From Bdellovibrionales bacterium (GTDB lineage: Bacteria > Bdellovibrionota > Bdellovibrionia > Bdellovibrionales > UBA1609): DNA of 64,000 nt. The position numbers and the translations under genes were made by a program. The stretch's first letter is position 1; the number at the start of each line of letters is the position of its first letter. Shown piece by piece: positions 2 through 41,264 of this stretch. The DNA lies in contig JAHDFM010000006.1 in assembly GCA_020628165.1 (NCBI GenBank), positions 31,303 to 95,302 of the forward strand, given 5' to 3'. The notes beneath the pieces were generated by a model. The model saw nothing but the letters and a program-made list of their open reading frames with translations, ran no database searches and was not told the DNA's origin.

Positions 2-226
2 TTTGGTGGCGACTTGGGAGATGCAAGAACTCATAAAGGCAATGAACTACCGATGTTCTCTATCGGTAGTGCCGGTGGTAGAATCCAAACAAACACAGTT
101 AAAAATATGTCTAATAAAAAGCTTTCTAGTTTACACAAATCTTTGTTGCAAGCACTTGGAAGTAAAATTGAAACATTTGGTGACAGTGGGACTGGTGGCG
201 TGCAAGTGTCAGATGTGGCTGCGTAA
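2..226 (+). CDS. C-terminal fragment of a DUF1552-family protein (5' end outside window)
   Basis: Frame open from the window edge to TAA at 224-226. The tail ...NELPMFSIGSAGGRI...LLQALGSKIETFGDSGTG resembles the tail of the full-length paralog at 31533-33008 (...MLVSGNMGGLKPGKH...ALKALGVNINTQGEISG). Confidence 0.55.
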   Translation, partial: FGGDLGDARTHKGNELPMFSIGSAGGRIQTNTVKNMSNKKLSSLHKSLLQALGSKIETFGDSGTGGVQVSDVAA

Positions 227-2342: not shown

Positions 2343-4361
2343 TCAATCGAGCATGGCTAAAAATTGCTCGATTGATAAGACTTTGACGCCGAGATCCTCG
2401 GCTTTTTTTAATTTTGAGCCAGCAGCTTCTCCTGCAATTAAATAATCTGTATTTTTACTCACGCTCCCTGGTGAGCTACCACCATTCACTTCAATGGTTT
2501 TTTTCAAATCACTGCGTTTGTAATTATCAAAGCTTCCTGTGATAACAAACTTTAGCCCTTTTAACTTTTTAGAGGCATTAGTGACATCACTCTTTGCGAT
2601 CTTAACACCATTTTTAAGCAAGTTCTGAACTTCCTTAACGAAGTCTTTATTGCTCAAACTTGAAGTGATGGAGCTTGCTACTTTGGGTCCAATATCATTG
2701 AGAGCCAACAGGTCTTCTTCGGTGGCTTTTAAAAACGATGGCACGTCTTGATAATAATTGGCTAAGGTTTTAGCCGTTTGCTCACCGACAAAACGAATTC
2801 CAAGGGCATAAATAAAACGGCTAAGCTCTGGCTGTCGGCTGGCATCGATGCTTTTAATAATATTGTTGGCCGATTTTTCACCTTGTCGCTCCAAGGGAAG
2901 AATGTCTTCTTTTTTAAGTGTGTATATATCAGAAAAAGTTTTCACTAACCCTTCGGTCCAAAGTTGTTTGGTGATTTGCTCTCCGAGCTTATCAATGTTC
3001 ATGGCTTTTTTACTGACAAAATGTTTAAGGGACTCCTTCACAACAGCGGGGCAAAAAAGGTTTGGGCAACGATAAACAGCTTCGTCTTCATTTTTTTCAG
3101 CCTTGGTTCCACACACGGGGCATTTTTGGGGAAACTCATAAGCAACAGATGACTTTTTTCTTTTCTTTAAGACAACTTCCACAACCTCTGGAATAACATC
3201 ACCAGCTCTTTGCACCACAACGGTGTCGCCGATGCGCACGTCTTTACGAGCAATTTCACTTTCGTTATGAAGAGTGGCGTTGGTGATGGTCACGCCCCCC
3301 ACAAATACAGGTTCCATAATTGCCACAGGCGTGAGTGCGCCAGTTCGACCCACTTGTAACACAATATCTTTAATGACTGTGGTTTCTTGTTTTGGTTTGT
3401 ACTTGGCAGCCGTTGCCCAGCGCGGGCTTCTGGCGACAAAGCCAAGTTCTTGCTGTAGCTGGAAGGAGTTCACTTTCATGACCATGCCGTCGATTTCAAA
3501 CTCGAGTTGATCGCGCACACTTTCGATGAAGTGGTAGTGTGCCACTGCCTCTTCTGCGTTTTTACATTTTTTAATGATTGCAGATTTTTTAATTTTTTTT
3601 GCAATTAAATTTGGGATTTTTAATTGGTTGACGGCCTCTAAGAATTGATAGTGAGAGTCGGCACCGTGACCGTCAATCACTCCTGGGGCGTAGGCGTAAA
3701 AACGCAATGGGCGGGTGGCAGCCACTCGAGAATCGAGTTGTCTTAACGTTCCAGCGGCGGCATTGCGAGGATTGGAAAAGGTTTCAAGCCCTTGACTCAG
3801 TTGCCCCTCATTGAGTGATTCAAAGTCACTTTTGTGTAAGAGCACTTCCCCGCGCAGTTCAAAAACGTCTGGCACGGCCCCGGCATCAATTTTTAATGGA
3901 ATGGTCTTAATAGTTTTGGTGTTCAGTGTGACATCTTCGCCAGTAGTTCCATCCCCGCGAGTGATGGCTTTGGTGAGCAAGCCTTTTTCATAAACTAATT
4001 CAAGAGCTAAACCATCAAGTTTTGGCTCGCAAATGAACTCTACGTCTTCATCTGAATTTAAAAATTTTTTGATGCGCTCATCAAAGGCTAAGATATCATC
4101 TGGAGAGTAACTGTTTTGCAGTGATAGCATAGGTGTGCGATGTTTAACTTTACTGAACTTATCTAAAGGCGTTGAACCGGCGCGCTGACTTGGCGAAGTT
4201 TCGGTAACAAGCTCAGGGTGCTTGGATTCGAGCTCTAAGAGTTCATTGAAAAGTTGGTCGAACTGGTAATCACTGATGGTTGGTTTATCCAGTGAGTGAT
4301 AGTTGTAATTGTGCTGTTCAATTTCTATGGATAATTTTTTATGCTTTTCTTTGTAGTTCAA
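2343..4361 (-). CDS. ligA: NAD-dependent DNA ligase
   Basis: 672 aa. Adenylation motif EPKLDGLA, Zn-finger CPVCG...CPNLFCPA, and a C-terminal BRCT-like GLKFVITGSF. Confidence 0.97.
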   Translation of the reverse strand: MNYKEKHKKLSIEIEQHNYNYHSLDKPTISDYQFDQLFNELLELESKHPELVTETSPSQRAGSTPLDKFSKVKHRTPMLSLQNSYSPDDILAFDERIKKFLNSDEDVEFICEPKLDGLALELVYEKGLLTKAITRGDGTTGEDVTLNTKTIKTIPLKIDAGAVPDVFELRGEVLLHKSDFESLNEGQLSQGLETFSNPRNAAAGTLRQLDSRVAATRPLRFYAYAPGVIDGHGADSHYQFLEAVNQLKIPNLIAKKIKKSAIIKKCKNAEEAVAHYHFIESVRDQLEFEIDGMVMKVNSFQLQQELGFVARSPRWATAAKYKPKQETTVIKDIVLQVGRTGALTPVAIMEPVFVGGVTITNATLHNESEIARKDVRIGDTVVVQRAGDVIPEVVEVVLKKRKKSSVAYEFPQKCPVCGTKAEKNEDEAVYRCPNLFCPAVVKESLKHFVSKKAMNIDKLGEQITKQLWTEGLVKTFSDIYTLKKEDILPLERQGEKSANNIIKSIDASRQPELSRFIYALGIRFVGEQTAKTLANYYQDVPSFLKATEEDLLALNDIGPKVASSITSSLSNKDFVKEVQNLLKNGVKIAKSDVTNASKKLKGLKFVITGSFDNYKRSDLKKTIEVNGGSSPGSVSKNTDYLIAGEAAGSKLKKAEDLGVKVLSIEQFLAMLD

Positions 4362-24166: not shown

Positions 24167-24814
24167 TTAATTATTACTTTTAATTTTAACCAGGACTTCA
24201 TTTCGTCTTAAAAAAGGCAAAGTGAAGGGTGGGTCGTAGCCGGCAAATACGGGTGGCGAGATCATTTGATATTTTTGTTGAGTGTTTAACCATTCGAGCA
24301 GCTTTTTCTTATTCGCTTTTCTGGACTCCAGAGAATCAAAAGAGCCTGTGTATCTAACAACTGCATATAGGGTTTCGTCGTTTTGAATGATTTGAACATT
24401 GTTGCTGAGAGGCTGAGGTAAAGTTTCGAGAGTGTACTTTTTGGGCATGCTGAACGACATGGTCCATTCGTTGTTATCATTGCTTTCAAGCACAACTGGA
24501 GCCGTCATTGCGATCTTTTCACTTTTATTTGAGTCTGGTTTGTTCATGACTACAGGTGCCGTCATAGCAATTTTTTCTTTTTGTTTATTCTTACCAAAGA
24601 TATAGCCAGCTAATTCACCAAAAAGTTGCCCATCAATTTCATCATAGTCGCCGCGCATAGTTGCTTGTGCAGAGATATAAGGGTTGTACTTTCTGATTTC
24701 AACATCATTGATTTTTTCAATCACAGTGTAATCAAGTTCTTCAGCTGTGCGAACACCAAACACAGAACAAGATGATGATAATAAACTCACTAAGATTAAT
24801 AGACCTTTTTTCAT
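24167..24814 (-). CDS. SOUL/HEBP-family heme-binding-like lipoprotein
   Basis: Two IAMTAPV motifs, Y.V.......E.R.Y, lipobox LSSSC after the MKKGLLIL start (an internal ATG of the listed ORF). Confidence 0.8.
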   Translation of the reverse strand: MKKGLLILVSLLSSSCSVFGVRTAEELDYTVIEKINDVEIRKYNPYISAQATMRGDYDEIDGQLFGELAGYIFGKNKQKEKIAMTAPVVMNKPDSNKSEKIAMTAPVVLESNDNNEWTMSFSMPKKYTLETLPQPLSNNVQIIQNDETLYAVVRYTGSFDSLESRKANKKKLLEWLNTQQKYQMISPPVFAGYDPPFTLPFLRRNEVLVKIKSNN

Positions 24815-24937
24815 GATGAATCCTTTTTTATATTCTAAACTGACGTCATAGAAGTTCAAGCTTCATTTCTAATGATCATAAAATAGTAAAAACTAGAAGG
24901 AAAAATATATTTCTTAAAAGACACAAAGCGTATGTGC

Positions 24938-29195: not shown

Positions 29196-29771
29196 TCACA
29201 AGATAGTCCGCTTCAAAACAGGAATGTGCCCCGTTTCGCCGACACTCTTAACAACAATTTTCCCCTGACTGCTCACTTTAACAATAGATAAACTGCACTC
29301 AAAGATCTCAAAATTCGACCAGGCTTCAATGGGAACTCCAAGGCACTTACAAATAAAGTAGCGAATGATATTGCCGTGACAGATAAGAACTTCATGTTTT
29401 TCTGTCTCTTTTTTGTTAGGCGCGAAGAAAACATTAAAAGCTTGATCCATGCGTTCCTTGTCCATTTTGATTTGCACCTTGTCCAATTTTTTTTGTTTAA
29501 TAAGAGGAGCAGGAACATAGGGAAGCCCTTCTTTTAAAAGGTGATGACTCTTGAGTTGTAAGTTAGAAAACTTTTCAATGACAGAAAGGGCAGTTTCTTT
29601 GGCTCTTAACAGTGAGCTTGAGTGAATTTTATCAACGGGGTAGTCAGTTAAACGTTTAGCGATGCAGTTGGCTTGATAGTGCCCTAAGCGCGTGAGAGAG
29701 CCGTAGGTGTCACTGTCTTTGTCCATGTCATACTGACCATGTCTAACAAGATAAATATATTTTAGAGCCAC
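29196..29771 (-). CDS. Histidine phosphatase (SixA/PGAM) family protein
   Basis: LVRHGQ catalytic motif and a downstream CHGN. Confidence 0.85.
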   Translation of the reverse strand: MALKYIYLVRHGQYDMDKDSDTYGSLTRLGHYQANCIAKRLTDYPVDKIHSSSLLRAKETALSVIEKFSNLQLKSHHLLKEGLPYVPAPLIKQKKLDKVQIKMDKERMDQAFNVFFAPNKKETEKHEVLICHGNIIRYFICKCLGVPIEAWSNFEIFECSLSIVKVSSQGKIVVKSVGETGHIPVLKRTIL

Positions 29772-29960: not shown

Positions 29961-31487
29961 TTGCACACTCTAGGTACCACAGCACTTAAAATAATAATTA
30001 CGTTCACTTTTTTTATTCCTGTTTTGTCTCAATCTGAGCCATGGTTGTCTAACCGATTTGCCCAAAACTGTGCTGGTTGCCACGCCCCTGGACGTTTAAA
30101 TTTGCCGCCCAAAAGAAGACGCTGCACACTATCTTGTCAAGGGTGTCATGTGAACCCCAATGGTGGTGGGATGCGTAGTGATTACGGCAAGTGGACACAA
30201 CAGCGTTGGTTAAAAACATTTCATGTTAAAGGTTATAAGTTTAGCAAAAACGCTCCTGCTCCCGACTTTGCTCAAGATTACATGAGAAAAAGTAAAAATT
30301 TAAAATACTCAAAACGCAGTAAAAAACTTCGCAAGAAAAATAAAAAAAGAAGAAAGAAAACAGCTAAGAAAAATTTAATTCCAAAAATGTACACAACCAC
30401 GTCGTTGGATCACAAAGAAGAGCATTACGATCACTTTTCAAATTCTGACTGGCGCAAGATCAACGCCACTTCAATGAAACAATTTTTAACCAGAGTTCCT
30501 GCAGGAGACCCGTGGAGAACTGAAAGAGCGGAGCTAGTTACTGCGGGTACGGACCTGAGATATTTTTTTGGTTCAGTAACAGACAACAATGATGACAACC
30601 CTGAAACACAGTCGACGGATTTAAATTTATTAATGGCCGCTGACATTGGAGTGCGCTTGAAGCCTGTGAAAGAGCACTTTTCATTGGTTCTTGAAGGCCG
30701 ATTTTTAGGCTACCCAGGACAAAATACGGGGCTTTTGGAGCCGTTCAACAACGGTGCGGCAATTAGGTCTGCTTATGTGTTTTCAGACAACTTACCTTAC
30801 AACACTTGGTTCATGGCAGGGAAGTACCGACCCAACTTTGGGTACTACACTGCCGACCATGATTCTTTGATAGCAGATCTATCAGGAATGAATCAGTTTT
30901 CAACTTACAATGCGGTAGGTTTTGGTGGATCACCGAATGTTCCGTTCTTTGATATGCATTATATATTTAAAAAAGAATCAACAAGAGGAGATACCTTACA
31001 AACGGGTGGTTCCTCCGTGAATTTCGCTGAAGAAAAAGGTTTTAACGTCAATGTTGGTGGTCGCGCGATCACTCTTGGTTTGAGTGGTAAGTTATCATAC
31101 TGGGCTACAAAATTAGATTCTGGTGAAACACGAACGATGATTTCTGCCATCGGTGGAGCTAAGTGGAAGCGTCTTGTTGGTAATTTAGAGTTCTTAAGAT
31201 GGGCTGTAGAAGCCCCGTTAGAAACAGCAGGCAATGTCACAACTGTTGATTTAAAATATAGAGCATGGCGAGAAAACTATTTATCGTTAGTCTACTCGAG
31301 TGCCAACACCGGTGACAAAGGGCACCCTGGTAGTGCTTACGAATACACATTAGGTGTAAAAAGCTATTTACTTTCCGGCGTAAAGATGGAGCTCATGTAC
31401 AAAAACAGAATCTCCGACACCACCAGTAACACTGTCGATGACGAAGACATGACAACCTACTACCTACAACTACACACCTACTTCTAA
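29961..31487 (+). CDS. Predicted outer-membrane beta-barrel with an N-terminal 2xCXXCH module
   Basis: TTG start and signal peptide. CAGCH and CQGCH motifs within aa 37-63. K/R-rich insert. C-terminal beta-strand-like periodicity ending ...YYLQLHTYF. Confidence 0.7.
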   Translation: MHTLGTTALKIIITFTFFIPVLSQSEPWLSNRFAQNCAGCHAPGRLNLPPKRRRCTLSCQGCHVNPNGGGMRSDYGKWTQQRWLKTFHVKGYKFSKNAPAPDFAQDYMRKSKNLKYSKRSKKLRKKNKKRRKKTAKKNLIPKMYTTTSLDHKEEHYDHFSNSDWRKINATSMKQFLTRVPAGDPWRTERAELVTAGTDLRYFFGSVTDNNDDNPETQSTDLNLLMAADIGVRLKPVKEHFSLVLEGRFLGYPGQNTGLLEPFNNGAAIRSAYVFSDNLPYNTWFMAGKYRPNFGYYTADHDSLIADLSGMNQFSTYNAVGFGGSPNVPFFDMHYIFKKESTRGDTLQTGGSSVNFAEEKGFNVNVGGRAITLGLSGKLSYWATKLDSGETRTMISAIGGAKWKRLVGNLEFLRWAVEAPLETAGNVTTVDLKYRAWRENYLSLVYSSANTGDKGHPGSAYEYTLGVKSYLLSGVKMELMYKNRISDTTSNTVDDEDMTTYYLQLHTYF

Positions 31488-31532: not shown

Positions 31533-33008
31533 TTATGAGAAGAGCTCGTCAATGCGGCCACTAATTTCACCTTGAGTGTTTATATTTACACCCAAAGCTT
31601 TGAGAGCTGAAATAAATACCTTTGTTGGGTGTTGTTTGTTGGCGTTAAAGTGTTTTCCAGGCTTTAAACCGCCCATATTTCCCGAAACTAACATAATCAT
31701 ATTTTCAGCAGAGTGAGCATAGTGGGTTTCGTTGGCACTTTGATAAAATTTATCTGAATAATAATTTCGTCCTTTGCCAGCTTCACAAAAGTACACACCG
31801 ACAGTTTGATCATAAAGAGATCCGGTACCAATGTTAGTGTCTTTAAGTTTTTTAATTAAACTGGCATACATATTAATCTGCCAAGCATGGGCTTTGTGCA
31901 ATGCCTCGATGTTTTTTTGTGATGATGAACACGCGGACCCACAACCATGAGTTAGGTTATGAAAATCTGTGTAAACACCAGTGATGGGGCCTGCATTTAA
32001 CCATGGGTGGTTATATGTTGCGACTAAGTTCACCACATTATTAATTCCACAGGACATAGCCATGTAGGCGAGATCAACTGCGACTTTAGCGCGCTCGATT
32101 TCATTGGAATAATTTTCATTCCCGCGAACTTGCTGGCCTCTTTCATTGCGCCACTTATTTATGTCTAAAATATTCCCTCTTGCTTGGTCAGGGCCAGGGT
32201 CTTTCATTTTATAACAGCTTACAATTTCTTTTTGATCGATATTGCTCAACTGAGTTTCTAAGTCTCGCAGTGAAGAGATGTGTCGATCCATTTTAACTTG
32301 GTCTGAACGACCAAGTTTTTTCTTAAATTGATTAAGGTCGTCTTTGACTAAGTCTAAAACTGTACCTCTTTTTTTAAATTCAAATAAGCGACGTTGTTCT
32401 TGAGCTTGATCACTTGAGCTAACATTGCTAACTAAGTCTAGATAAAGTTTGTGAAGGTCAGTTTTGGGCATGAGCTTCACTTTTTTCTTTATACTGACTG
32501 TAGATGTTCCACCAGTATAACCTGAAGCTTGCACACCAATTGTTAGTGGTGTTTTACCACCTGTGCTGTTGGCAAAAATCACATCGGGAGAGTCATAAGA
32601 TTTTATTGCATCAGTTTTAACCTTGCGGCTTCCACTGAGTTGGATGGTATGACAGTTTCCGTGGATGTTAGAAACCCCACCGGGCTTATCTTTGTAAGGC
32701 ATAAATAAATTGGAGGCTATTTGTACAAGGTTACGCACTCCGTGGTCATTGAGGGGTTGCAATGAAATTGGCAAATTTGTTCCAATCGGGCCTGTTGAAT
32801 AGGGCATGAGTACAGGGTCTTTTTGAGACTTATGCCCTGAGGCCAAAGCAATGCCTGAAAAAACAGTGAAGTAATTTTTGGGAATCGCCGAGCCTTGAGC
32901 AAAAGCTTCCCCATGACTGTTTAACATGAGATCTAATATAGGTAGCTTTATTGCTGTTGAATAAAGTCCTCTTAAAAATGTTCTACGGTCTAAAAAATGT
33001 TTTTTCAT
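31533..33008 (-). CDS. DUF1552-family protein with Tat signal
   Basis: MKKHFLDRRTFLRG twin-arginine signal (an internal ATG of the listed ORF). Its start is 1 nt after the upstream stop. Family-typical C-terminal tail. Confidence 0.85.
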   Translation of the reverse strand: MKKHFLDRRTFLRGLYSTAIKLPILDLMLNSHGEAFAQGSAIPKNYFTVFSGIALASGHKSQKDPVLMPYSTGPIGTNLPISLQPLNDHGVRNLVQIASNLFMPYKDKPGGVSNIHGNCHTIQLSGSRKVKTDAIKSYDSPDVIFANSTGGKTPLTIGVQASGYTGGTSTVSIKKKVKLMPKTDLHKLYLDLVSNVSSSDQAQEQRRLFEFKKRGTVLDLVKDDLNQFKKKLGRSDQVKMDRHISSLRDLETQLSNIDQKEIVSCYKMKDPGPDQARGNILDINKWRNERGQQVRGNENYSNEIERAKVAVDLAYMAMSCGINNVVNLVATYNHPWLNAGPITGVYTDFHNLTHGCGSACSSSQKNIEALHKAHAWQINMYASLIKKLKDTNIGTGSLYDQTVGVYFCEAGKGRNYYSDKFYQSANETHYAHSAENMIMLVSGNMGGLKPGKHFNANKQHPTKVFISALKALGVNINTQGEISGRIDELFS

Positions 33009-33009
33009 A

Positions 33010-34692
33010 TTACTTCCAAACAATTTGTTTAAATTCGTTAGACATAATAATGTCGCGAATTAAATTTTTGTAACTCCCATGAAGAGTAAAACTTCGTTGC
33101 AATGATTTTAAATAAACGGGGTTCACTTCTTTAGTATCAAAGCCAAAAGCAAATAAACTGGCTTTTTCAACGAGGCAATTTTGCACAATAGTTCTTTCGT
33201 TATAAAGAGCGTTACTAAAACCAATAAGACCTGTGAACTTGCCAATGTTGTAAATCTCGCCTTCACCATCTATTTGGCAGGACTTATCTAAGTGTTCGAC
33301 AGTGCGGTATTGTCCTAGGTGGTTGAAGTTTTCTAATCCGAGACCAATGCCATCCATTTTTATGTGGCAGCTTGCGCAGGCAGGGTTCGTCATTAAAGCA
33401 AGATGACTGTCTTTCTTACATTTGCCACCGTTAGTTGGTGGCGGAAGTTCATCGAGGTCTACATTTGCAGGAGGCTGTCCAATTTTATCACAAAGAAGTC
33501 CTTTGATAAGGTTATAGCCTCGTTTACTTGGGCTAGAATCTCCAATCTTAGGAAAAGCTGACAAAAATGTAGCGTGAGAAAAAATTCCCATGCGTGGTTG
33601 ATTGGTGGTTTTGTAATTGATTTTATAAAAATCTTTCGACCCCTGTGTTGGAAAGCCATAATGTGCGGCAAGGGCATCATTCACATAGGTATAATCTAAT
33701 TTTAACAGATCGATCCAACTTTTGTTTTGATCTATGATGTGTTCTTTTAAAACCTTCTGAGTTTCCTGAATGGCATTCACTGCAATGACCGGGGGCAATT
33801 GCGATTGATAGTAACCAAACCACATAGAATGAAAATTTAATAGCTGGCGAGTGGCCTCAGGCTTATCAAACAGGCGTTCAATTTCAAAAGCAAGCGTAGA
33901 TGAATCCTGCAAGCTATTGGTGAGCGCTTTGTCGATGAGCTGACTGTCTGCTGGTGCTCCTGTGATTAAATAAGACATTTTGTTAGCAAACTCAATATCA
34001 CTTAAGGTGTATACAGTTCCGCTTACACTGCCTGATCCGTACTCTGTATATACAAACCTTGGAGACTGAAAGGTGAACATTAAAATAGAGTCCACAGCAG
34101 TATCAAAATTTCCAGATTCTTTTGAAAGCTCTATGGCCTTTAAGTTGAGTTGGTTGGTGGTTGAACTTGCTGGACGAGTTGTAAAGGCTTTATCAAACAC
34201 GTTGCTAGTGATTTTTGATAAACAATTTAAGTCAGTTGCGCTTTGGGGGTTACAGACAAAGACTTCTTTTTTAGCTTGATCTGATTTAAATATCTCTTCA
34301 CTCAACCGACGAGCAAAAAACTCAAGGTTATTAATTAGGTTTTCAGAAATAATTTGATCTTTGATAGTATTATTAAAAGGAGAGAGTGTTTCTTCACCTA
34401 AAAAGGACTCTACATTAATGTCGATTTTGAATCCAACTTTGATTTTGTTGTAAAGCTCATTATTAGTAAGCTTTCTGAAGCTAGTTGCTGGCATGACCCC
34501 TTCAGGTGCATTTTTAAAAGCAGGACTGTCGCCTCCGCCAAAGCTTCCATCTGAGCCGTCACCAAATCCACCGGTGTCACCATTGGTTGCGAAGTCTCCG
34601 TTAGCAATAAAACTAGGGGCACAGTTATTATAGGTTCCTATAATAAGAAATAATAGTAAGAAGTGTGTAATGTGTTTTTTCATCGCTAACAT
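33010..34692 (-). CDS. DUF1588/DUF1592-type protein with a single CXXCH motif
   Basis: 560 aa with a signal peptide and NPACASCHIKMDGIGLGLENF. The pairing with a downstream DUF1552 gene is the usual arrangement for these families. Confidence 0.8.
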   Translation of the reverse strand: MLAMKKHITHFLLLFLIIGTYNNCAPSFIANGDFATNGDTGGFGDGSDGSFGGGDSPAFKNAPEGVMPATSFRKLTNNELYNKIKVGFKIDINVESFLGEETLSPFNNTIKDQIISENLINNLEFFARRLSEEIFKSDQAKKEVFVCNPQSATDLNCLSKITSNVFDKAFTTRPASSTTNQLNLKAIELSKESGNFDTAVDSILMFTFQSPRFVYTEYGSGSVSGTVYTLSDIEFANKMSYLITGAPADSQLIDKALTNSLQDSSTLAFEIERLFDKPEATRQLLNFHSMWFGYYQSQLPPVIAVNAIQETQKVLKEHIIDQNKSWIDLLKLDYTYVNDALAAHYGFPTQGSKDFYKINYKTTNQPRMGIFSHATFLSAFPKIGDSSPSKRGYNLIKGLLCDKIGQPPANVDLDELPPPTNGGKCKKDSHLALMTNPACASCHIKMDGIGLGLENFNHLGQYRTVEHLDKSCQIDGEGEIYNIGKFTGLIGFSNALYNERTIVQNCLVEKASLFAFGFDTKEVNPVYLKSLQRSFTLHGSYKNLIRDIIMSNEFKQIVWK

Positions 34693-34905: not shown

Positions 34906-35577
34906 ATGAAGTTTTTCTTTTACACATTTTTAATTATTTGTTCATCTTATGCTGTTGGCACATTTGCTAATACTACTTTAATTGAGGGCACAAAAGGCGA
35001 TGAAAGTAAAAAAGAATCGCTTATACAATCACGAAAAATTATAGAACAACAAAATGCACAGATTAAAAATCAACAGAGAGTATCGATAATAAACTCAGCA
35101 AATGAATCCTTAAAAACATCTTTCCAAGACGAAAACACCACTCAAACTGAACAAAATAAAGATAAATTTTTAAACAACAGTTGTGTTCAAGATGCCTGTG
35201 AGTTTATATCAGGCTCATGGTGTGCCGACGAATCAAGACAATTGAATCTTGCCATCGAATGCAACAAAGTCAAAGCTAAAGGCTGTCTGCGCTCAGTTTG
35301 TCAAAAGCTAGGTCCTTTTGATTGTGACGAAAACAAGGAAATTGTTGGTGTGCTTTCATTGTGTCAAAAAAACATTCAACCGAGTTGTTTAAATCTTGTA
35401 TGTGATAGTTCAGGTCCTTTTGCATGCGACCAGTTCAAAGAATTACAAAAGGTGGCAAAAACCTGTGAAAACACAAGTTCAAGCTGTCTTGCGCTATCGT
35501 GTCAAACGAGAGGCCCTTTTGCTTGCAACGAAGCTCGTGATTTTGAGAGCTTAAGCAAAGAATGCAGCATGCAATGA
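34906..35577 (+). CDS. Secreted cysteine-rich repeat protein
   Basis: Signal peptide and SD GGGGAG. Four tandem units of about 33 aa with spacing C-x4-C-x6-C-x12/13-C; three carry GPF(A/D)C. Confidence 0.75.
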   Translation: MKFFFYTFLIICSSYAVGTFANTTLIEGTKGDESKKESLIQSRKIIEQQNAQIKNQQRVSIINSANESLKTSFQDENTTQTEQNKDKFLNNSCVQDACEFISGSWCADESRQLNLAIECNKVKAKGCLRSVCQKLGPFDCDENKEIVGVLSLCQKNIQPSCLNLVCDSSGPFACDQFKELQKVAKTCENTSSSCLALSCQTRGPFACNEARDFESLSKECSMQ

Positions 35578-35709
35578 GTCTAATTTTTTCACCTTAATGC
35601 TAATTTTTGAAATACAAACCATAAATATTTAAGTTTCGCCTATAATAACTATTCTTAATAGACGTTGTTCTCAGTTTCAGATATTCAAACTTAATTGGGG
35701 GGATGTTCA

Positions 35710-37230
35710 ATGAACTGGAATGATGAATTTAACCGTTTTGTTGGTCACTATTCAAAATACCAAGACTTATCTGGCAGAGATCAGCCAGCTGAGAATTTCA
35801 TTAAGTTTATAGACGCAGATATTGGTCGAAAAGTGGACTTCAACCGTATAGCTGTTCATCACATGGTTATTCCTGCATATAGTCGCTCATCGTCCCCACA
35901 TGCAGAAAGTCATGAAGAAGAATTTGTTTTAGTTCTGCAAGGTCAAATAGATTTGTGGCTCAATGGATTTATTTACCCTTTAAAAGAGGGACACGCCGTT
36001 GGTTTTCCGGCAGGAACAGGTATTTCACATACATTCATCAATAACTCTGACCAAGATGTTCAACTTATTGTTGCAGGTGAAAAAACCAAGGATGAGAATT
36101 TATGTTATTTTCCAATCAATCTGGAGTTCAAAGAGACTTGTGGTATTTGGTGGGAAAATGCTCCTCGACACCAACTAGGTTTTCATGATGGTAAACCTAA
36201 AAAAGTTAAAAATGATGAACTTGGAAAAGATAAACCAGGCTGTGTTGTTTATTGCCCTGAAGTTAGAATAGGTGAATCATTTCATTACCCAAGTGACAAC
36301 GAAACCTTTGGTGAGGGTTTTAGAATCACTGACAAGGTTGGTTTAAAGGCTCTTGGCGTAAATTACGAGCACTTGCCACCGGGCCGAAGGAGTGCCTTCC
36401 CTCATGCTCATACCCATGAAGAGGAGTTTGTATTTGTCATTAAGGGTAAGCCAACTCTTTGGATGAATGGATATACGAAGACTCTTGAGGAAGGGTGCTT
36501 TGCTGCATTTCCATCAAATACCGGTATTTCTCACGCAATTATTAATGAGACTGAAGAGCCGGTAGAGTATTTGTGCATAGGGGAAACTGCAGACTTTCCT
36601 GACGAAAAAATTATATACCCATTCAATCCATTGAGAAATAAAGAGTGCGATCGCAAGGGTTGGTTTTGGAAAGATGCCCCCAAAGTGGAATTTGGAAAAC
36701 ATAACGGTCAATCAAAAATACCTTTTCAAGGGCATCTCAAACTAAGGTTAGTAACCAAGGAAAATGTAGACGAAGTTCATCAAATCTGTAAGGACTTTCC
36801 TCAGTACTTTATTAAAGTTGAAGGCTGTGAACCAACAAAGGAAATGACTTTCAAAGAAATTGTTGAAAAACCTAAAGAGCAAAGCCAACAATACTTTAAA
36901 GAGTTTTTGATTATTGAAGCTGAAGGTCAAGCAGTTGGTGTTGTTGATCTTCATGTAAATCATCCTGAACAAGAAACATGTTATATTGGTTTGCTGCTTT
37001 TAAAAGAGAGTTTACAAAGAAAAAGGTTAGGAACTCGAGCTTATAAATTTATTGAAAATTATATTAAAACAGCTTTGTCGTGTGAGAAAATAAAGTTGGG
37101 TGTGTCAGAAGAAAACGATGTTTCAATTTTTTGGCAAAAGTTTGGATTTAAGCCAAGTGGTAAAACATATAACTGGCATGGTGAGAAAAAAACTGCAAAG
37201 GTCATGGAGTTTCAAAAATCACTCAATTAA
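35710..37230 (+). CDS. Bicupin-GNAT fusion protein
   Basis: Two cupin cores (HAESHEEEFVLVLQG, HAHTHEEEFVFVIKG) followed by a GNAT-like tail (QRKRLGTRAY). ATG preceded by GGGGGGA. Confidence 0.8.
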   Translation: MNWNDEFNRFVGHYSKYQDLSGRDQPAENFIKFIDADIGRKVDFNRIAVHHMVIPAYSRSSSPHAESHEEEFVLVLQGQIDLWLNGFIYPLKEGHAVGFPAGTGISHTFINNSDQDVQLIVAGEKTKDENLCYFPINLEFKETCGIWWENAPRHQLGFHDGKPKKVKNDELGKDKPGCVVYCPEVRIGESFHYPSDNETFGEGFRITDKVGLKALGVNYEHLPPGRRSAFPHAHTHEEEFVFVIKGKPTLWMNGYTKTLEEGCFAAFPSNTGISHAIINETEEPVEYLCIGETADFPDEKIIYPFNPLRNKECDRKGWFWKDAPKVEFGKHNGQSKIPFQGHLKLRLVTKENVDEVHQICKDFPQYFIKVEGCEPTKEMTFKEIVEKPKEQSQQYFKEFLIIEAEGQAVGVVDLHVNHPEQETCYIGLLLLKESLQRKRLGTRAYKFIENYIKTALSCEKIKLGVSEENDVSIFWQKFGFKPSGKTYNWHGEKKTAKVMEFQKSLN

Positions 37231-37465: not shown

Positions 37466-37957
37466 TTAATTTATAATTTTTTTGAGGTCTTTAAGGGCTT
37501 GAGCAAGCTGTGGCGATTCAAAATAACGCTCTTTCCATTTATAGATACTAAGACCTTGGCCCTTCATAAAGGTGGCCTGTTTGCCACTGATAAATTGAAT
37601 GCCTAAGAGATTACTATAGACAGAGCCAATCGGGCGCTCATCAGTAAAATGCACAGTAAGTCGGCAGTACTCGCTGAACCATTTTTCAACGGCGATGGTG
37701 TTGAGCTTTCTTTCCTGAACGCCAACTTTAGCGTACCAGTCTTTGTCTTTTTGAAAGAGAGTGATGCTATCGTTAACTAGTAATTTTTCAGCGCGCGTGT
37801 CGCACCAAGTTAAAAAGCTTTTGTTTTGGCCAGGTAACCCAAATAAGTGATTTATAGATTGTGGTAGCCCGTCATTTTTTAAGCAATACATAGCGTAAGC
37901 ACAAAGGCAGGTACCAAGAATAAGGAAGTTGAGTTTTACAATGAGGTTTACGTTCAA
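37466..37957 (-). CDS. Hypothetical signal-anchored protein
   Basis: The listed ORF runs into tRNA-Arg. The TTG at 37957, with GGAG 5 nt upstream, avoids the overlap and keeps the hydrophobic N-terminus. Confidence 0.5.
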   Translation of the reverse strand: MNVNLIVKLNFLILGTCLCAYAMYCLKNDGLPQSINHLFGLPGQNKSFLTWCDTRAEKLLVNDSITLFQKDKDWYAKVGVQERKLNTIAVEKWFSEYCRLTVHFTDERPIGSVYSNLLGIQFISGKQATFMKGQGLSIYKWKERYFESPQLAQALKDLKKIIN

Positions 37958-37977
37958 AACATCTCCAAAGTAAAAAA

Positions 37978-38054
37978 TGGCACGCCCGGAAGGAGTCGAA
38001 CCTCCGACCACTTGATTCGTAGTCAAGTACTCTATCCAGCTGAGCTACGGGCGC
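37978..38054 (-). tRNA. tRNA-Arg (anticodon ACG)
   Basis: Hand fold: GCGCCCG acceptor, GCTCAGCTGGATAGAGT D-arm, anticodon loop CTACGAA, TTCGACT T-loop, encoded CCA. Confidence 0.9.
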
Positions 38055-39068: not shown

Positions 39069-41063
39069 TTATTTTTTAGACTGTCTGATCATGATCATGT
39101 CTTTAAGGTTGTTGTATAAATGGTGACTAGGAACCCAGATATCAAATTTACCATCATCAGTGACTTCGAGCCATTTCGATTTTTGTAAAGTTTGATTGTA
39201 GTTGGAATACTTGCCCCAGCTGTTTCTAAGTTTATATTCACACTGCTTTAGTTGAGAGTCGTACCTCATGTCGCTAAGTAGGTAAGTGTGCCCGCCACAT
39301 TGATTGTGTAGTTTAGAACCGTACTTGTTGTACCTAAAGTTTGTATCATAGTTATTTATCATATAAAGGGTGTCGGAGTAATTTCTATCTAAATCAACGA
39401 TATATTGTTTAGTCACTTCATGTATTAAACCTTGGTTACATACAGATATACCAACGCCCATGAACTGACGGCTATTAATGTTTTCTTGAATTCCATTAAT
39501 CATATCATGGTAATTGTAGTCATCTTTAAAGTTACGATCAAAAAGTTCGCTTACGTATCCATTGCGTGGATATATGATCTTATTACCTGCAGGGAAGTAA
39601 TCAAAATTCTCTAAATCAAATTTCAGTGCATCAAGTTTAAATTCTTCACCACGTAAGTAAGCTGCGTTTCCACACGTCATCATCGACGTATTTCTTAAGA
39701 GTACTTTTTGAAGTAATTCAACATTAATCTTTTCACGAACTTGTTTGATCGCAGCAACAGGGTCGTTTTCTATCATTTCAAAAACTTCAGTATCTCTTCT
39801 ATTTTCCGTAAATGAACTAATGGCTCCAAATAAACCAGAGAATGTTTTTAGTAGATCAATCATTTCTTCTTTTGGAGTGTCACCATTATAGTTGTCTGGG
39901 TCTTTCAATAAGCGAATCAAATCAAAAGTTTGATAATACTGTTTTGTTTTAGTTGGATTAGTTGCACCCATTTCCCATGAGGATTGTGGGCAGGCACCAA
40001 AGCCGAGTGCGGATTTAATAGATAAGTCTGTGTGACCACCATCAAAATCATTTATCTTTTCATCTTTACCTTCATTTTGAAAAGTGTATAAAGCTGAAAT
40101 AAAATAGGCTGAAGTGTCTCCTTGCCAAGTTTTCCTCATAGTATTGAGGTCGTTTTCAGGTATGTTAAATTGACCGCTGGTCCAATACCAAGGGTTTGCA
40201 TAGTTGGATTCAAAACGGACAACTTGTCTATAAATATCCAACATCTCTGCAGCTAAATTAGCATAACAAGTTCCACCAATTTGATCTCGAACTTCGCGGT
40301 GCTCTAAAATTGTATTAACAATAGATTGTCTTGAAAGTATAGGCATGTTTCCTGGACTTAAACTGGGCTTGGTGCAATCTTGTTCGTCATCAAAAATGGG
40401 AGCTGGGACATTTAAATTAAAAGTTTTTATATAGTTCCCCTCATTGATGCCTTTAACAAAATCAATGGGAATGGGCTGAGAATATCTATTATAAAAATTA
40501 GTTGGGATCTCAAAATTAGAATTGAGTGTTAGACTTTTTTTCATGAGTTCCAATTCATAAGGGAGATCTAAACTTCTAATATTCTGAATCAATTTTTGTT
40601 TATCAGGTTCTATTAATAATAAGTATCTATAGGCATAAGAAATTCTGAATTTATATGAGGCATAGGAAAAGATATTATCTTCATTGGAGTTAAGAAAAGG
40701 TTTAACGTCGAATTTCCAATCTTGAGCGTATCGACTCCATGTTTTACCAACAGTATTCGCATCAAAAAGGTCAGAAGCGATAGAATACCAAACAACATAG
40801 CGTATCAGAGCACGCATAATTATTTTTTTGTCATTTGGAAAGTTTGCATCATCAAAAGATGTTAACGCATACTTGATGCCTTCTTTATCATAATTATTAA
40901 TGGCCTTGTATATATTGTAATTTAAATTTTCATCAGGTTTTTTTAAATAAGTACTGTGTAATAAAAAACCTTTGATTGAATGATAAATACTTTGATCAAT
41001 AGGCTCAGCAGAAACTGAAAAATTTGAAAAAGTGAGGACTAATAGTAGTATTAATTTTTTCAT
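39069..41063 (-). CDS. Secreted papain-like (C1-like) cysteine peptidase with a large N-terminal region
   Basis: DQIGGTCYANLAA (Gln/Cys), CGGHTYLL (His) and RNSWG (Asn-Ser-Trp) in papain order. Signal peptide after the MKKLILLL start. Confidence 0.65.
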   Translation of the reverse strand: MKKLILLLVLTFSNFSVSAEPIDQSIYHSIKGFLLHSTYLKKPDENLNYNIYKAINNYDKEGIKYALTSFDDANFPNDKKIIMRALIRYVVWYSIASDLFDANTVGKTWSRYAQDWKFDVKPFLNSNEDNIFSYASYKFRISYAYRYLLLIEPDKQKLIQNIRSLDLPYELELMKKSLTLNSNFEIPTNFYNRYSQPIPIDFVKGINEGNYIKTFNLNVPAPIFDDEQDCTKPSLSPGNMPILSRQSIVNTILEHREVRDQIGGTCYANLAAEMLDIYRQVVRFESNYANPWYWTSGQFNIPENDLNTMRKTWQGDTSAYFISALYTFQNEGKDEKINDFDGGHTDLSIKSALGFGACPQSSWEMGATNPTKTKQYYQTFDLIRLLKDPDNYNGDTPKEEMIDLLKTFSGLFGAISSFTENRRDTEVFEMIENDPVAAIKQVREKINVELLQKVLLRNTSMMTCGNAAYLRGEEFKLDALKFDLENFDYFPAGNKIIYPRNGYVSELFDRNFKDDYNYHDMINGIQENINSRQFMGVGISVCNQGLIHEVTKQYIVDLDRNYSDTLYMINNYDTNFRYNKYGSKLHNQCGGHTYLLSDMRYDSQLKQCEYKLRNSWGKYSNYNQTLQKSKWLEVTDDGKFDIWVPSHHLYNNLKDMIMIRQSKK

Positions 41064-41264
41064 ATCTGAATGTAAAAGCAAAGTTAGCGCCAATTTTCAA
41101 CAGATAAATTAAGTAAAATTATCTGTAAGTAGCTGAGAACACTTGAAAAGCTAGATTGTTAAAAAGTTAGATTTTGACTTAAGTGTGTCTGCTAAAAAAT
41201 TGATCTTCAGCTGTATACTTTCTATACATTTAGTGGACTTCGCTTTTTCCCATGAGGTGTAATA

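What the first reader, a model, noticed from the sequence alone, without database searches (positions are those of the whole stretch)
31533..34692. DUF1588(CXXCH)-DUF1552(Tat) gene pair, with a second DUF1552 copy at the window edge
A 560-aa exported protein carrying PACASCHIKMDG is followed, 1 nt after its stop, by a 491-aa protein with a twin-arginine signal (DRRTFLRG) and a DUF1552-type tail. The first 226 nt of the window encode the tail of another DUF1552 protein, so the genome holds at least two copies. These paired families are widespread, for example in planctomycetes and Bdellovibrio-like bacteria, but to my knowledge have no demonstrated function. Here the operon sits between a diheme barrel candidate and a cysteine-repeat protein.
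Basis: partly seen in the sequence, partly recalled or inferred. Interest (0 to 1): 0.55.

Follow-up and report, generated by a model that had tools for sequence, protein, structure and literature searches.

The report
Heme lipoprotein plus Tat metalloenzyme pair
This is a real but ordinary example of a widespread two-gene module of unknown function: a heme-motif lipoprotein followed by a twin-arginine-exported protein with an alkaline-phosphatase-like fold, probably a two-subunit periplasmic metalloenzyme.

Summary
On the minus strand, gene A (33010-34692, 560 aa) matches Pfam PSCyt3/DUF1588 and PSD4/DUF1592 and carries one CXXCH. One base after its stop, gene B (31533-33008, 491 aa) starts; it matches HXXSHH/DUF1552 and has a DRRTFLRG twin-arginine motif. 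The first 226 bases of the window encode the tail of a second DUF1552 protein of a different, planctomycete-type subfamily; only a family profile detects it.

The A-then-B arrangement recurs in 69 of 85 evaluable related loci. It is already described in the literature as a pairing of unknown function. The diheme "barrel" gene is never syntenic. The Cys-repeat gene is syntenic only in the one close relative with enough flank.

New here:
- B's predicted fold belongs to the alkaline-phosphatase/sulfatase superfamily, but B lacks the sulfatase formylglycine motif. It conserves four His, two Asp and one Glu.
- A has a confident model with no match to any solved structure. Its CXXCH is invariant across 24 homologs, and longer homologs carry extra cytochrome c domains.

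Best reading, about 0.4 confidence: a periplasmic two-subunit redox metalloenzyme. Verdict: a new, divergent member of a known kind, of moderate-to-low interest.

The parts
33010..34692 (-). Gene A: 560-aa probable lipoprotein of the PSCyt3/PSD family (DUF1588 + DUF1592, weak DUF1585). Mostly alpha-helical.
   Evidence: ORF. Pfam hits. 45 homologs. AlphaFold model with pLDDT 85.1 and pTM 0.83. No match to any solved structure; best Foldseek E is 0.6.
34621..34692 (-). A's signal peptide, MLAMKKHITHFLLLFLIIGTYNN, ending at Cys24. It is followed by a roughly 37-residue Gly/Asp-rich linker (34510-34620) that the model treats as disordered.
   Evidence: Translation. Cys24 aligns with the Cys of canonical lipoboxes (LLTAC, LAAAC, LLTGC) in homologs. 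pLDDT is below 50 for residues 21-61. Lipidation is inferred; the YNNC box is not canonical.
33364..33378 (-). CASCH (C439, C442, H443): the c-type heme attachment motif of the PSCyt3 domain.
   Evidence: Invariant in all 24 aligned homologs, together with D447, G450 and E454. Chance occurrence is 0.24%. Heme attachment itself was not tested.
31533..33008 (-). Gene B: 491-aa DUF1552 (HXXSHH) protein with a predicted alkaline-phosphatase-superfamily fold.
   Evidence: Pfam 115.3 bits. Model with pLDDT 78.6 and pTM 0.79. The 50 Foldseek PDB hits listed are almost all alkaline-phosphatase-superfamily enzymes; best E is 1.2e-5 and TM-scores are up to 0.42.
32898..33008 (-). B's twin-arginine signal region (residues 1-37). 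It contains DRRTFLRG (32967-32990), a weakly hydrophobic stretch, and AFA before Q38.
   Evidence: Translation. An RRxFL-type motif is present in 28 of 29 family members. The Pfam TAT_signal model hits 11 of 29 members, but not this protein itself.
31947..31961 (-). H350-N-L-T-H354, this protein's version of the family's HxxSH(H) motif. The other invariant residues are H116 (32661-32663), D142 (32583-32585), D236 (32301-32303), E251 (32256-32258) and H432 (31713-31715).
   Evidence: These columns are invariant in the 29-sequence alignment A1. Coordinates were checked by translation. That they form a metal site is inferred.
2..226 (+). The last 74 codons and stop of a second DUF1552 gene of the classical subfamily. 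The rest of the gene lies outside the window.
   Evidence: Family profile E 9.8e-9. Classical-subfamily profile 33 bits, and no hit to B's own subfamily profile.
34906..35577 (+). Divergently transcribed 223-aa secreted Cys-repeat protein. It is a possible lineage-specific neighbour, not part of the conserved module.
   Evidence: A homolog sits in the same divergent position in L004 (BLASTP 6e-19). It is absent from all other loci. No Pfam or NCBIfam hit.

Best explanation
The pair is a member of the widespread two-gene module in which a PSCyt3/PSD gene is followed by a DUF1552 gene. The two genes are co-transcribed and probably translationally coupled.

A is exported through Sec, probably lipid-anchored at Cys24, and held on a flexible Gly/Asp-rich tether. 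It carries a single covalently bound c-type heme at C439/C442/H443, inside an all-alpha fold that matches no solved structure.

B folds in the cytoplasm, probably acquires its metal there, and is exported by the Tat pathway. It has an alkaline-phosphatase-superfamily fold. In place of the usual nucleophile and acidic metal ligands, it conserves a His-rich set of residues: H116, H350, H354 and H432, together with D142, D236 and E251.

In the periplasm the two proteins most likely form a two-subunit metalloenzyme. A's heme would exchange electrons with B's metal centre, so the chemistry would be redox-coupled rather than simple hydrolysis. The substrate is unknown.

What is shown: family membership, the motifs and their conservation, gene adjacency, and the fold class of B. 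What is inferred: heme attachment, lipidation, metal binding, complex formation and electron transfer.
For: **Module membership and adjacency**
- Pfam assignments.
- A lies immediately upstream of B on the same strand in 69 of 85 evaluable loci, spanning relatives down to about 21% identity.
- The gap between the genes is 1-3 bases here and in relatives, which fits co-translation of interacting subunits.

**Two export routes**
- The twin-arginine motif is conserved in 28 of 29 B homologs.
- A has a Sec-type signal with a Cys in the lipobox position.

**Fold of B**
- Foldseek hits are sulfatases, phosphonate monoester hydrolases, PafA, LtaS and EptA, with probability about 1.0.
- There is no C/S-x-P-x-R motif at any conserved position.
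- Seven invariant His, Asp and Glu residues are present.

**Heme and electron transfer**
- CXXCH is invariant across A homologs.
- Longer homologs add N-terminal cytochrome c domains, PF13442 or PSCyt1 PF07635, each with its own CXXCH. This is what an electron-transfer chain would look like.

**Known precedents**
- From established knowledge: a Tat-exported catalytic subunit paired with a Sec-exported monoheme cytochrome c subunit is the layout of periplasmic dehydrogenases such as sulfite dehydrogenase SorAB.
- Kamneva et al. 2012 reached a similar reading, electron transport plus a cofactor-bearing Tat enzyme, for the sister module built on DUF1501.
Against: - No experiment exists on any member of either family, as far as the searchable literature shows.
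- Characterised alkaline-phosphatase-superfamily enzymes are hydrolases or transferases; I know of no redox enzymes among them.
- TM-scores to solved members are modest, 0.35-0.42. The placement of the conserved His residues in the active-site cleft rests on secondary-structure order, not on coordinates.
- A shows no cytochrome fold and no invariant Met or His that could be a sixth heme ligand.
- Pfam's TAT_signal model does not score this particular protein.
- Complex formation was not modelled.
Confidence: 0.4

Rival explanations
1. B is a Tat-exported hydrolase or transferase, as other alkaline-phosphatase-superfamily enzymes are, acting on a phospho-, sulfo- or glyco-conjugate. A is its membrane-tethered, substrate-binding or scaffolding partner. 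A's heme would be structural or regulatory, and there would be no catalytic electron transfer.
For: Every solved structural neighbour of B is a hydrolase or transferase. Some PSCyt-family proteins carry carbohydrate-binding modules (He et al. 2017; PF16841 hits). A is a tethered lipoprotein with a large non-cytochrome fold.
Against: B lacks the sulfatase formylglycine motif. By sequence order, a His (H116) sits where the Ser, Thr or formylglycine nucleophile would be; this is inference. The strict invariance of CXXCH and the recurrent fusion of extra cytochrome c domains are hard to explain without electron transfer.
Confidence: 0.3
2. The CXXCH in A does not bind heme. It would instead be a metal-binding or thiol-redox motif, and the pair would be a periplasmic metal-handling or metal-acquisition system: a His-rich Tat protein plus a Cys/His lipoprotein.
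For: The 'cytochrome' name rests on the motif alone. A has no cytochrome fold match and no Pfam cytochrome domain. B is rich in conserved His residues.
Against: Homologs fuse genuine class-I cytochrome c domains (PF13442) to the same protein. The full C-x-x-C-H pattern, including the His, is invariant, as expected for covalent heme attachment.
Confidence: 0.12
3. The pair works together with its local neighbours, the diheme putative outer-membrane barrel (29961-31487) and the Cys-repeat protein (34906-35577), as a larger envelope-spanning electron conduit.
For: All four proteins have export signals. Two carry CXXCH motifs. The Cys-repeat gene keeps its divergent position in L004.
Against: The barrel gene is absent from all 102 related loci. 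In L004, B is followed directly by the histidine-phosphatase gene. The Cys-repeat gene is absent everywhere except L004. In L004 the unrelated housekeeping-type neighbour is also conserved at 64% identity, so shared ancestry is enough to explain the synteny.
Confidence: 0.05

Closest known systems
PSCyt3/PSD (group III) genes adjacent to DUF1552 genes, described in Verrucomicrobia and Planctomycetes (He et al. 2017, PMC5615132; the domains were first defined in Rhodopirellula baltica)
   Same: The same Pfam families, the same gene order (A then B), the invariant CXXCH and the Tat motif.
   Different: A is a reduced, divergent version. PSD3/DUF1587 and PSD5/DUF1595 are not detected by HMM, and PSD2 falls below its cut-off. 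The lipobox is non-canonical. B belongs to a subfamily shared with Myxococcota, at 27-36% identity, that has an extra E-G-G-H-G-type insertion. The host has low GC content (about 38%) and is not an identified member of the PVC (Planctomycetes-Verrucomicrobia-Chlamydiae) group.
DUF1501 with PSCyt1/PSCyt2/PSD1 module (Kamneva et al. 2012, PMC3542564)
   Same: The same logic: a Tat-signal protein of unknown function next to a CXXCH-bearing multidomain exported protein. The authors propose membrane targeting and electron transport.
   Different: Different Pfam families. No sequence-level link between B and DUF1501 was detectable with HMMER.
Alkaline-phosphatase superfamily: S1 sulfatases, phosphonate monoester hydrolases, PafA, LtaS, EptA
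   Same: The predicted core fold of B.
   Different: No formylglycine C/S-x-P-x-R motif. No sequence-level match to these families. A conserved His-rich residue set takes the place of the Asp/Asp/nucleophile set. B has an obligatory heme-motif partner.
Periplasmic two-subunit dehydrogenases that pair a Tat-exported catalytic subunit with a Sec-exported monoheme cytochrome c subunit, such as sulfite dehydrogenase SorAB (established knowledge)
   Same: Two adjacent genes, two export routes, and one heme c motif in the partner. This is a resemblance in how it would work, not a claim of homology.
   Different: The catalytic subunit here has an alkaline-phosphatase-type fold rather than a molybdopterin fold. 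The heme protein is a 560-aa fold with no solved match, not a small class-I cytochrome.

Membership tests
PSCyt3/PSD group III proteins (DUF1588/DUF1592 family) | The PSCyt3 (PF07627) and PSD4 (PF07631) domains both score above their Pfam gathering thresholds | tested here: met
   72.2 bits against 27, and 71.5 bits against 23.3.
PSCyt3/PSD group III proteins (DUF1588/DUF1592 family) | Accessory domains PSD2, PSD3 and PSD5 (often present, but not obligatory according to He et al. 2017) | tested here: not met
   PSD2 scores 20.2 bits, below its 25.8 cut-off. PSD3 and PSD5 are not detected. Homologs at 33% identity or less do carry them, and the N-terminal region still aligns with theirs.
PSCyt3/PSD group III proteins (DUF1588/DUF1592 family) | A conserved CXXCH in the PSCyt3 domain | tested here: met
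   C439, C442 and H443 are invariant in 24 of 24 aligned homologs.
PSCyt3/PSD group III proteins (DUF1588/DUF1592 family) | An adjacent DUF1552 gene | tested here: met
   A one-base gap in the window. The same order in 69 of 85 evaluable loci.
DUF1552 (Pfam HXXSHH, PF07586) | A Pfam score above the gathering threshold | tested here: met
   115.3 bits against 30. All 29 aligned relatives also match.
DUF1552 (Pfam HXXSHH, PF07586) | The H-x-x-S-H-H motif | tested here: inconclusive
   The window protein has H350-N-L-T-H354-G. The two His residues that are invariant across the family are present. Ser is replaced by Thr and the third His by Gly, and both positions also vary in other members.
DUF1552 (Pfam HXXSHH, PF07586) | An N-terminal twin-arginine signal | tested here: met
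   DRRTFLRG at residues 7-14, and the motif is present in 28 of 29 members. Actual export by Tat was not tested.
Formylglycine (S1) sulfatases | A C/S-x-P-x-R motif carrying the formylglycine nucleophile | tested here: not met
   B has no such motif, and the family has none at any conserved position.
Alkaline-phosphatase superfamily (fold level) | A core alpha/beta fold shared with solved members | tested here: met
   Top Foldseek hits are all superfamily members, with probability about 1.0, E down to 1.2e-5, and TM-scores of 0.35-0.42. This was run on a model with pLDDT 78.6.
Alkaline-phosphatase superfamily (fold level) | A metal-binding Asp at the end of the first strand, plus a Ser, Thr or formylglycine nucleophile | tested here: inconclusive
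   The first strand (residues 45-51) ends in Ser-Gly, with no Asp. An invariant His (H116) begins the helix where the nucleophile would be expected. No coordinates were available to confirm the superposition.
c-type cytochromes | A CXXCH motif with covalently attached heme | not testable with these tools
   The motif is present and invariant. Attachment needs biochemistry.
c-type cytochromes | A recognisable cytochrome c fold or domain | tested here: not met
   No Pfam cytochrome domain in A and no match to a solved structure. Longer homologs do carry separate PF13442 cytochrome c domains.

The most novel reading that the evidence does not exclude
DUF1552 proteins are a redox-active branch of the alkaline-phosphatase superfamily. 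A His-ligated metal centre, loaded in the cytoplasm and exported by Tat, would be reduced or oxidised by a lipoprotein that holds a single c-type heme in a previously unseen all-alpha fold. Together they would carry out oxidative rather than hydrolytic chemistry on an envelope or extracellular substrate.
Probability: 0.3. Interest if true: 0.7.

Novelty: new member of a known kind. Interest (0 to 1): 0.35.

Why it matters
The DUF1552 family alone has about 25,000 representatives at 50% identity clustering, and almost always sits next to a PSCyt3/PSD gene. No member has a known function, so any assignment would annotate tens of thousands of genes in Planctomycetota, Verrucomicrobiota, Myxococcota and related groups.

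This window adds two things. First, it is a divergent, pared-down pair in a low-GC genome that holds at least two deeply diverged copies. Second, it yields two structural observations that narrow the hypotheses: B has an alkaline-phosphatase-type fold without the hydrolytic nucleophile motif, and A has no solved structural relative. By itself, the window does not make the function testable.

Tried and rejected
**Looking for the source genome, to count paralogous pairs and read the rest of the second copy**
- Exact-protein look-ups of window proteins and of P0001 found no contig.
- Cluster look-ups show only an unnamed 154,306-bp NCBI contig. Even Rho has no relative above 90% identity.
- The one Logan contig found is 2.6 kb long.
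- The GTDB species scan did not contain the source.
- As a result, neither the organism's taxonomy nor the genome-wide copy number could be established.

**Searches that found nothing**
- The broad alignment A1 was too diverse for locus finding. The narrower A3 and A4 worked.
- The sequence search of B's family profile against PDB gave only chance hits.
- NCBIfam has no model for either protein.
- Relaxed Pfam scans gave no link to Sulfatase or DUF1501.
- Rfam finds only four tRNAs in the window and nothing near the operon.

**Other checks**
- Clustering ORFs around the pair in 46 loci found no universal third gene. The only recurrent neighbours were lineage-restricted, including a candidate sigma/anti-sigma pair (assigned by eye from the sequences) in about 8-10 loci.
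- Promoter and terminator scans around the operon were no better than shuffled sequence.
- A horizontally acquired island is unlikely. GC content across the pair (0.40) matches its surroundings, and the flanks hold housekeeping genes such as gatAB, rho, prfA and serS.
Full report
**1. What is in the sequence**

Two minus-strand ORFs fill 31533-34692.

- Gene A (33010-34692, 560 aa) ends in TAA. One base later comes the ATG of gene B (31533-33008, 491 aa).
- The mechanical ORF for B starts five codons earlier at a TTG. Homologs start at the MKK position, so I take the ATG as the start.
- A's true start could equally be Met4, which is where the close homologs begin.
- GC content across the pair is about 0.40, the same as its surroundings.
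- The rest of the window is ordinary chromosome. Pfam domains match gatA, gatB, ppx, rho, prfA, prmC, an EPSP-synthase-family enzyme, serS and a sodium:solute symporter, and a ligA-like ORF lies at 2343-4361 (assigned by eye).

**2. Family assignment**

- A matches PSCyt3/DUF1588 (72.2 bits) and PSD4/DUF1592 (71.5 bits), both well above threshold. It matches PSD2/DUF1585 just below threshold.
- B matches HXXSHH/DUF1552 at 115.3 bits.
- NCBIfam has no model for either protein.

**3. The second copy at the window edge**

- Bases 2-226 on the plus strand translate to 74 residues and a stop.
- Pairwise comparison with B finds nothing.
- A profile of 29 DUF1552 proteins matches the fragment at E 9.8e-9 among all 320 window ORFs. 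The match aligns to the C-terminal positions of the family.
- I split the profile by subfamily. The fragment scores 33 bits against the classical, planctomycete-type members and does not hit B's own subfamily.
- The genome therefore holds at least two deeply diverged DUF1552 genes. Whether the edge copy has its own PSCyt3 partner lies outside the window, and I could not retrieve that sequence.

**4. The pair is a conserved module; the neighbours are not part of it**

- I collected 102 related loci from encoding contigs, species-representative genomes and metagenomes.
- Of 85 non-redundant loci with enough upstream DNA, 69 have an A homolog immediately upstream of B on the same strand. Four more have one elsewhere in the locus (L043 was re-scored by eye).
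- The remaining 12 loci are mostly very distant B homologs. There, a single-sequence tblastn query may simply miss the A homolog.
- In relatives with called genes, the gap between A and B is 3 bases.
- Clustering ORFs around the pair found no third universal gene.
- The diheme 'barrel' gene (29961-31487) has no counterpart in any locus.
- The Cys-repeat gene (34906-35577) has one counterpart, in L004. L004 is a marine metagenome contig whose A and B are about 50% identical to the window's. The counterpart sits in the same divergent position (BLASTP 6e-19).
- In L004, B is followed within five bases by a histidine phosphatase that is 64% identical to window 29196-29771. The barrel gene is therefore an insertion in the window's lineage or a loss in L004's. 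The phosphatase also has the opposite orientation relative to the pair.
- Because an unrelated neighbour is conserved as well, common descent is enough to explain the Cys-repeat synteny.

**5. Protein A**

- The N-terminus is a Sec-type signal ending at Cys24. That Cys falls in the same alignment column as the Cys of canonical lipoboxes in Myxococcota homologs (LLTAC, LAAAC, LLTGC). The window protein and its closest relatives have an unusual YNNC or FTNC box.
- A Gly/Asp-rich stretch follows, which the model treats as disordered (pLDDT below 50 for residues 21-61).
- The rest of the protein is confidently modelled (mean pLDDT 85.1, pTM 0.83) and mostly helical. It has no significant match among solved structures; the best Foldseek E is 0.6.
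- The single CXXCH (C439, C442, H443) is invariant in 24 homologs at 19-51% identity. So are Y345, R367, R391, D447, G450, E454 and R463.
- A CXXCH arises by chance in 0.24% of shuffles.
- No Met or second His is invariant, so the distal heme ligand is open.
- Longer homologs carry one extra N-terminal CXXCH inside a genuine cytochrome c domain, PF13442 or PSCyt1.
- Some homologs carry PF16841, which I recall as a carbohydrate-binding module; I did not verify this here. He et al. 2017 also report carbohydrate-binding modules in PSCyt proteins.

**6. Protein B**

- The N-terminus reads MKKHFLDRRTFLRG..., followed by a weakly hydrophobic stretch and AFA-Q.
- An RRxFL-type motif is present in 28 of 29 family members. 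Pfam's TAT_signal model scores 11 of the 29, but not this protein.
- The AlphaFold model (pLDDT 78.6, pTM 0.79) was searched against solved structures. The 50 listed hits are almost all members of the alkaline-phosphatase superfamily: S1 sulfatases, phosphonate monoester hydrolases, choline sulfatase, PafA, LtaS and EptA. Probabilities are near 1.0, E-values go down to 1.2e-5, and TM-scores are 0.35-0.42.
- There is no sequence-level link to those families.
- There is no C/S-x-P-x-R formylglycine motif at a conserved position, so B is not a sulfatase.
- Seven residues are invariant across 29 sequences down to 21-23% identity: H116, D142, D236, E251, H350, H354 and H432.
- Reading the model's secondary-structure order against what is known of the superfamily gives the following picture. 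This is inference, because no coordinates were available.
  - H116 begins the helix where the Ser, Thr or formylglycine nucleophile normally sits.
  - H350-x-x-x-H354 resembles the D-x-x-x-H metal-ligand pair of alkaline phosphatase and nucleotide pyrophosphatase/phosphodiesterase (NPP) enzymes.
  - H432 follows a core strand, as the D-H or D-N ligand pair does.
  - The first strand ends without the usual Asp.

**7. How it most likely works**

- The secure part: this is a two-gene operon encoding two exported proteins that use different export routes. It is conserved as a unit across several phyla.
- My preferred mechanism, at about 0.4 confidence, is a periplasmic two-subunit redox metalloenzyme.
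  - B acquires a metal in the cytoplasm, which would explain Tat export, and is the catalytic subunit.
  - A is a membrane-tethered heme c subunit that passes electrons to or from B.
- Arguments in favour:
  - the invariance of CXXCH;
  - the repeated fusion of further cytochrome c domains onto A homologs;
  - the replacement of hydrolytic residues in B by histidines;
  - the precedent of periplasmic dehydrogenases that pair a Tat catalytic subunit with a Sec cytochrome c subunit (established knowledge; SorAB is an example).
- Main rival, at about 0.3: B is a hydrolase or transferase like its structural relatives, and A is a tethering or substrate-binding partner.
- Less likely: the CXXCH is not a heme site (0.12), or the local neighbours join a larger conduit (0.05, contradicted by the synteny).

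**8. Comparison with what is known**

- The pairing of PSCyt3 genes with DUF1552 genes, and the absence of any known function, is stated explicitly by He et al. 2017 (PMC5615132, text S1).
- Kamneva et al. 2012 (PMC3542564) describe the sister module of DUF1501 with PSCyt1/2/PSD1. They suggest membrane targeting, electron transport and a cofactor-bearing Tat enzyme.
- My literature searches found no functional study.
- The family is very large: 24,932 representatives at 50% identity clustering with E up to 0.001, and 15,067 with E up to 1e-10.
- B's closest relatives are four or five metagenomic proteins at 46-51% identity. After those come Myxococcota MAG proteins at 27-36%, and two Bdellovibrionales MAGs at 27%.
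- The organism itself could not be named.

**9. Verdict**

This is a new, divergent member of a known and uncharacterised kind. The fold assignments add something modest. The window does not make the open question of function directly testable, so interest is moderate to low (0.35).

Noticed in passing
window 29961-31487 (+): A 508-aa exported protein with two N-terminal CXXCH motifs (NCAGCH and SCQGCH), a Lys/Arg-rich stretch, and a C-terminal region ending ...YYLQLHTYF, which resembles an outer-membrane barrel signature. Pfam gives only a sub-threshold Cytochrome_CBB3 hit. It is absent from all 102 related loci. In L004 its position is empty, with B abutting the histidine-phosphatase gene.
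   Followed up: partly
window 34906-35577 (+); L004 906-1520 (-): A secreted 223-aa protein with about four repeats of roughly 36 aa, following the pattern C-x(3-4)-C-x(3)-G-[PS]-F-x-C-x(11-14)-C. It has no Pfam or NCBIfam hit. A homolog lies in the same divergent position next to the pair in L004.
   Followed up: partly
window 29196-29771 (-) compared with L004 4861-5436 (-): The histidine-phosphatase gene is 64% identical between the two loci, but its orientation relative to the A-B pair is flipped. This points to a local rearrangement that came with the gain or loss of the barrel gene.
   Followed up: partly
window 34621-34632 (-); homologs P0040-P0042: The low-GC clade of A proteins has a non-canonical lipobox (YNNC or FTNC). 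Myxococcota homologs have the canonical L-A-[AG]-C at the same position. This could reflect a relaxed lipobox in this lineage, or these proteins may not be lipidated.
   Followed up: no
window 35695-37230 (+): A 511-aa fusion of two cupin domains with a C-terminal GNAT acetyltransferase domain.
   Followed up: no
window 39069-41093 (-): A 674-aa exported protein with no Pfam hit at E up to 1e-5. By eye it contains GGTCYA ... H ... NSWG, which is reminiscent of papain-like cysteine peptidase motifs. This was not tested.
   Followed up: no
window 24167-24859 (-): A SOUL heme-binding family protein (Pfam 2.5e-47) lies about 7 kb from the pair. No link to the pair was examined.
   Followed up: no
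L009-L044, 3.8-4.7 kb upstream of B: In about 8-10 related loci, two recurrent ORF families lie upstream of the pair. By eye, one resembles an ECF sigma factor and the other a zinc-finger anti-sigma factor. They are lineage-restricted and absent from the window.
   Followed up: no
window 37466-38026 (-): The start of this 186-aa mechanical ORF overlaps a tRNA gene at 37981-38054. The real gene, if there is one, must start further in.
   Followed up: no
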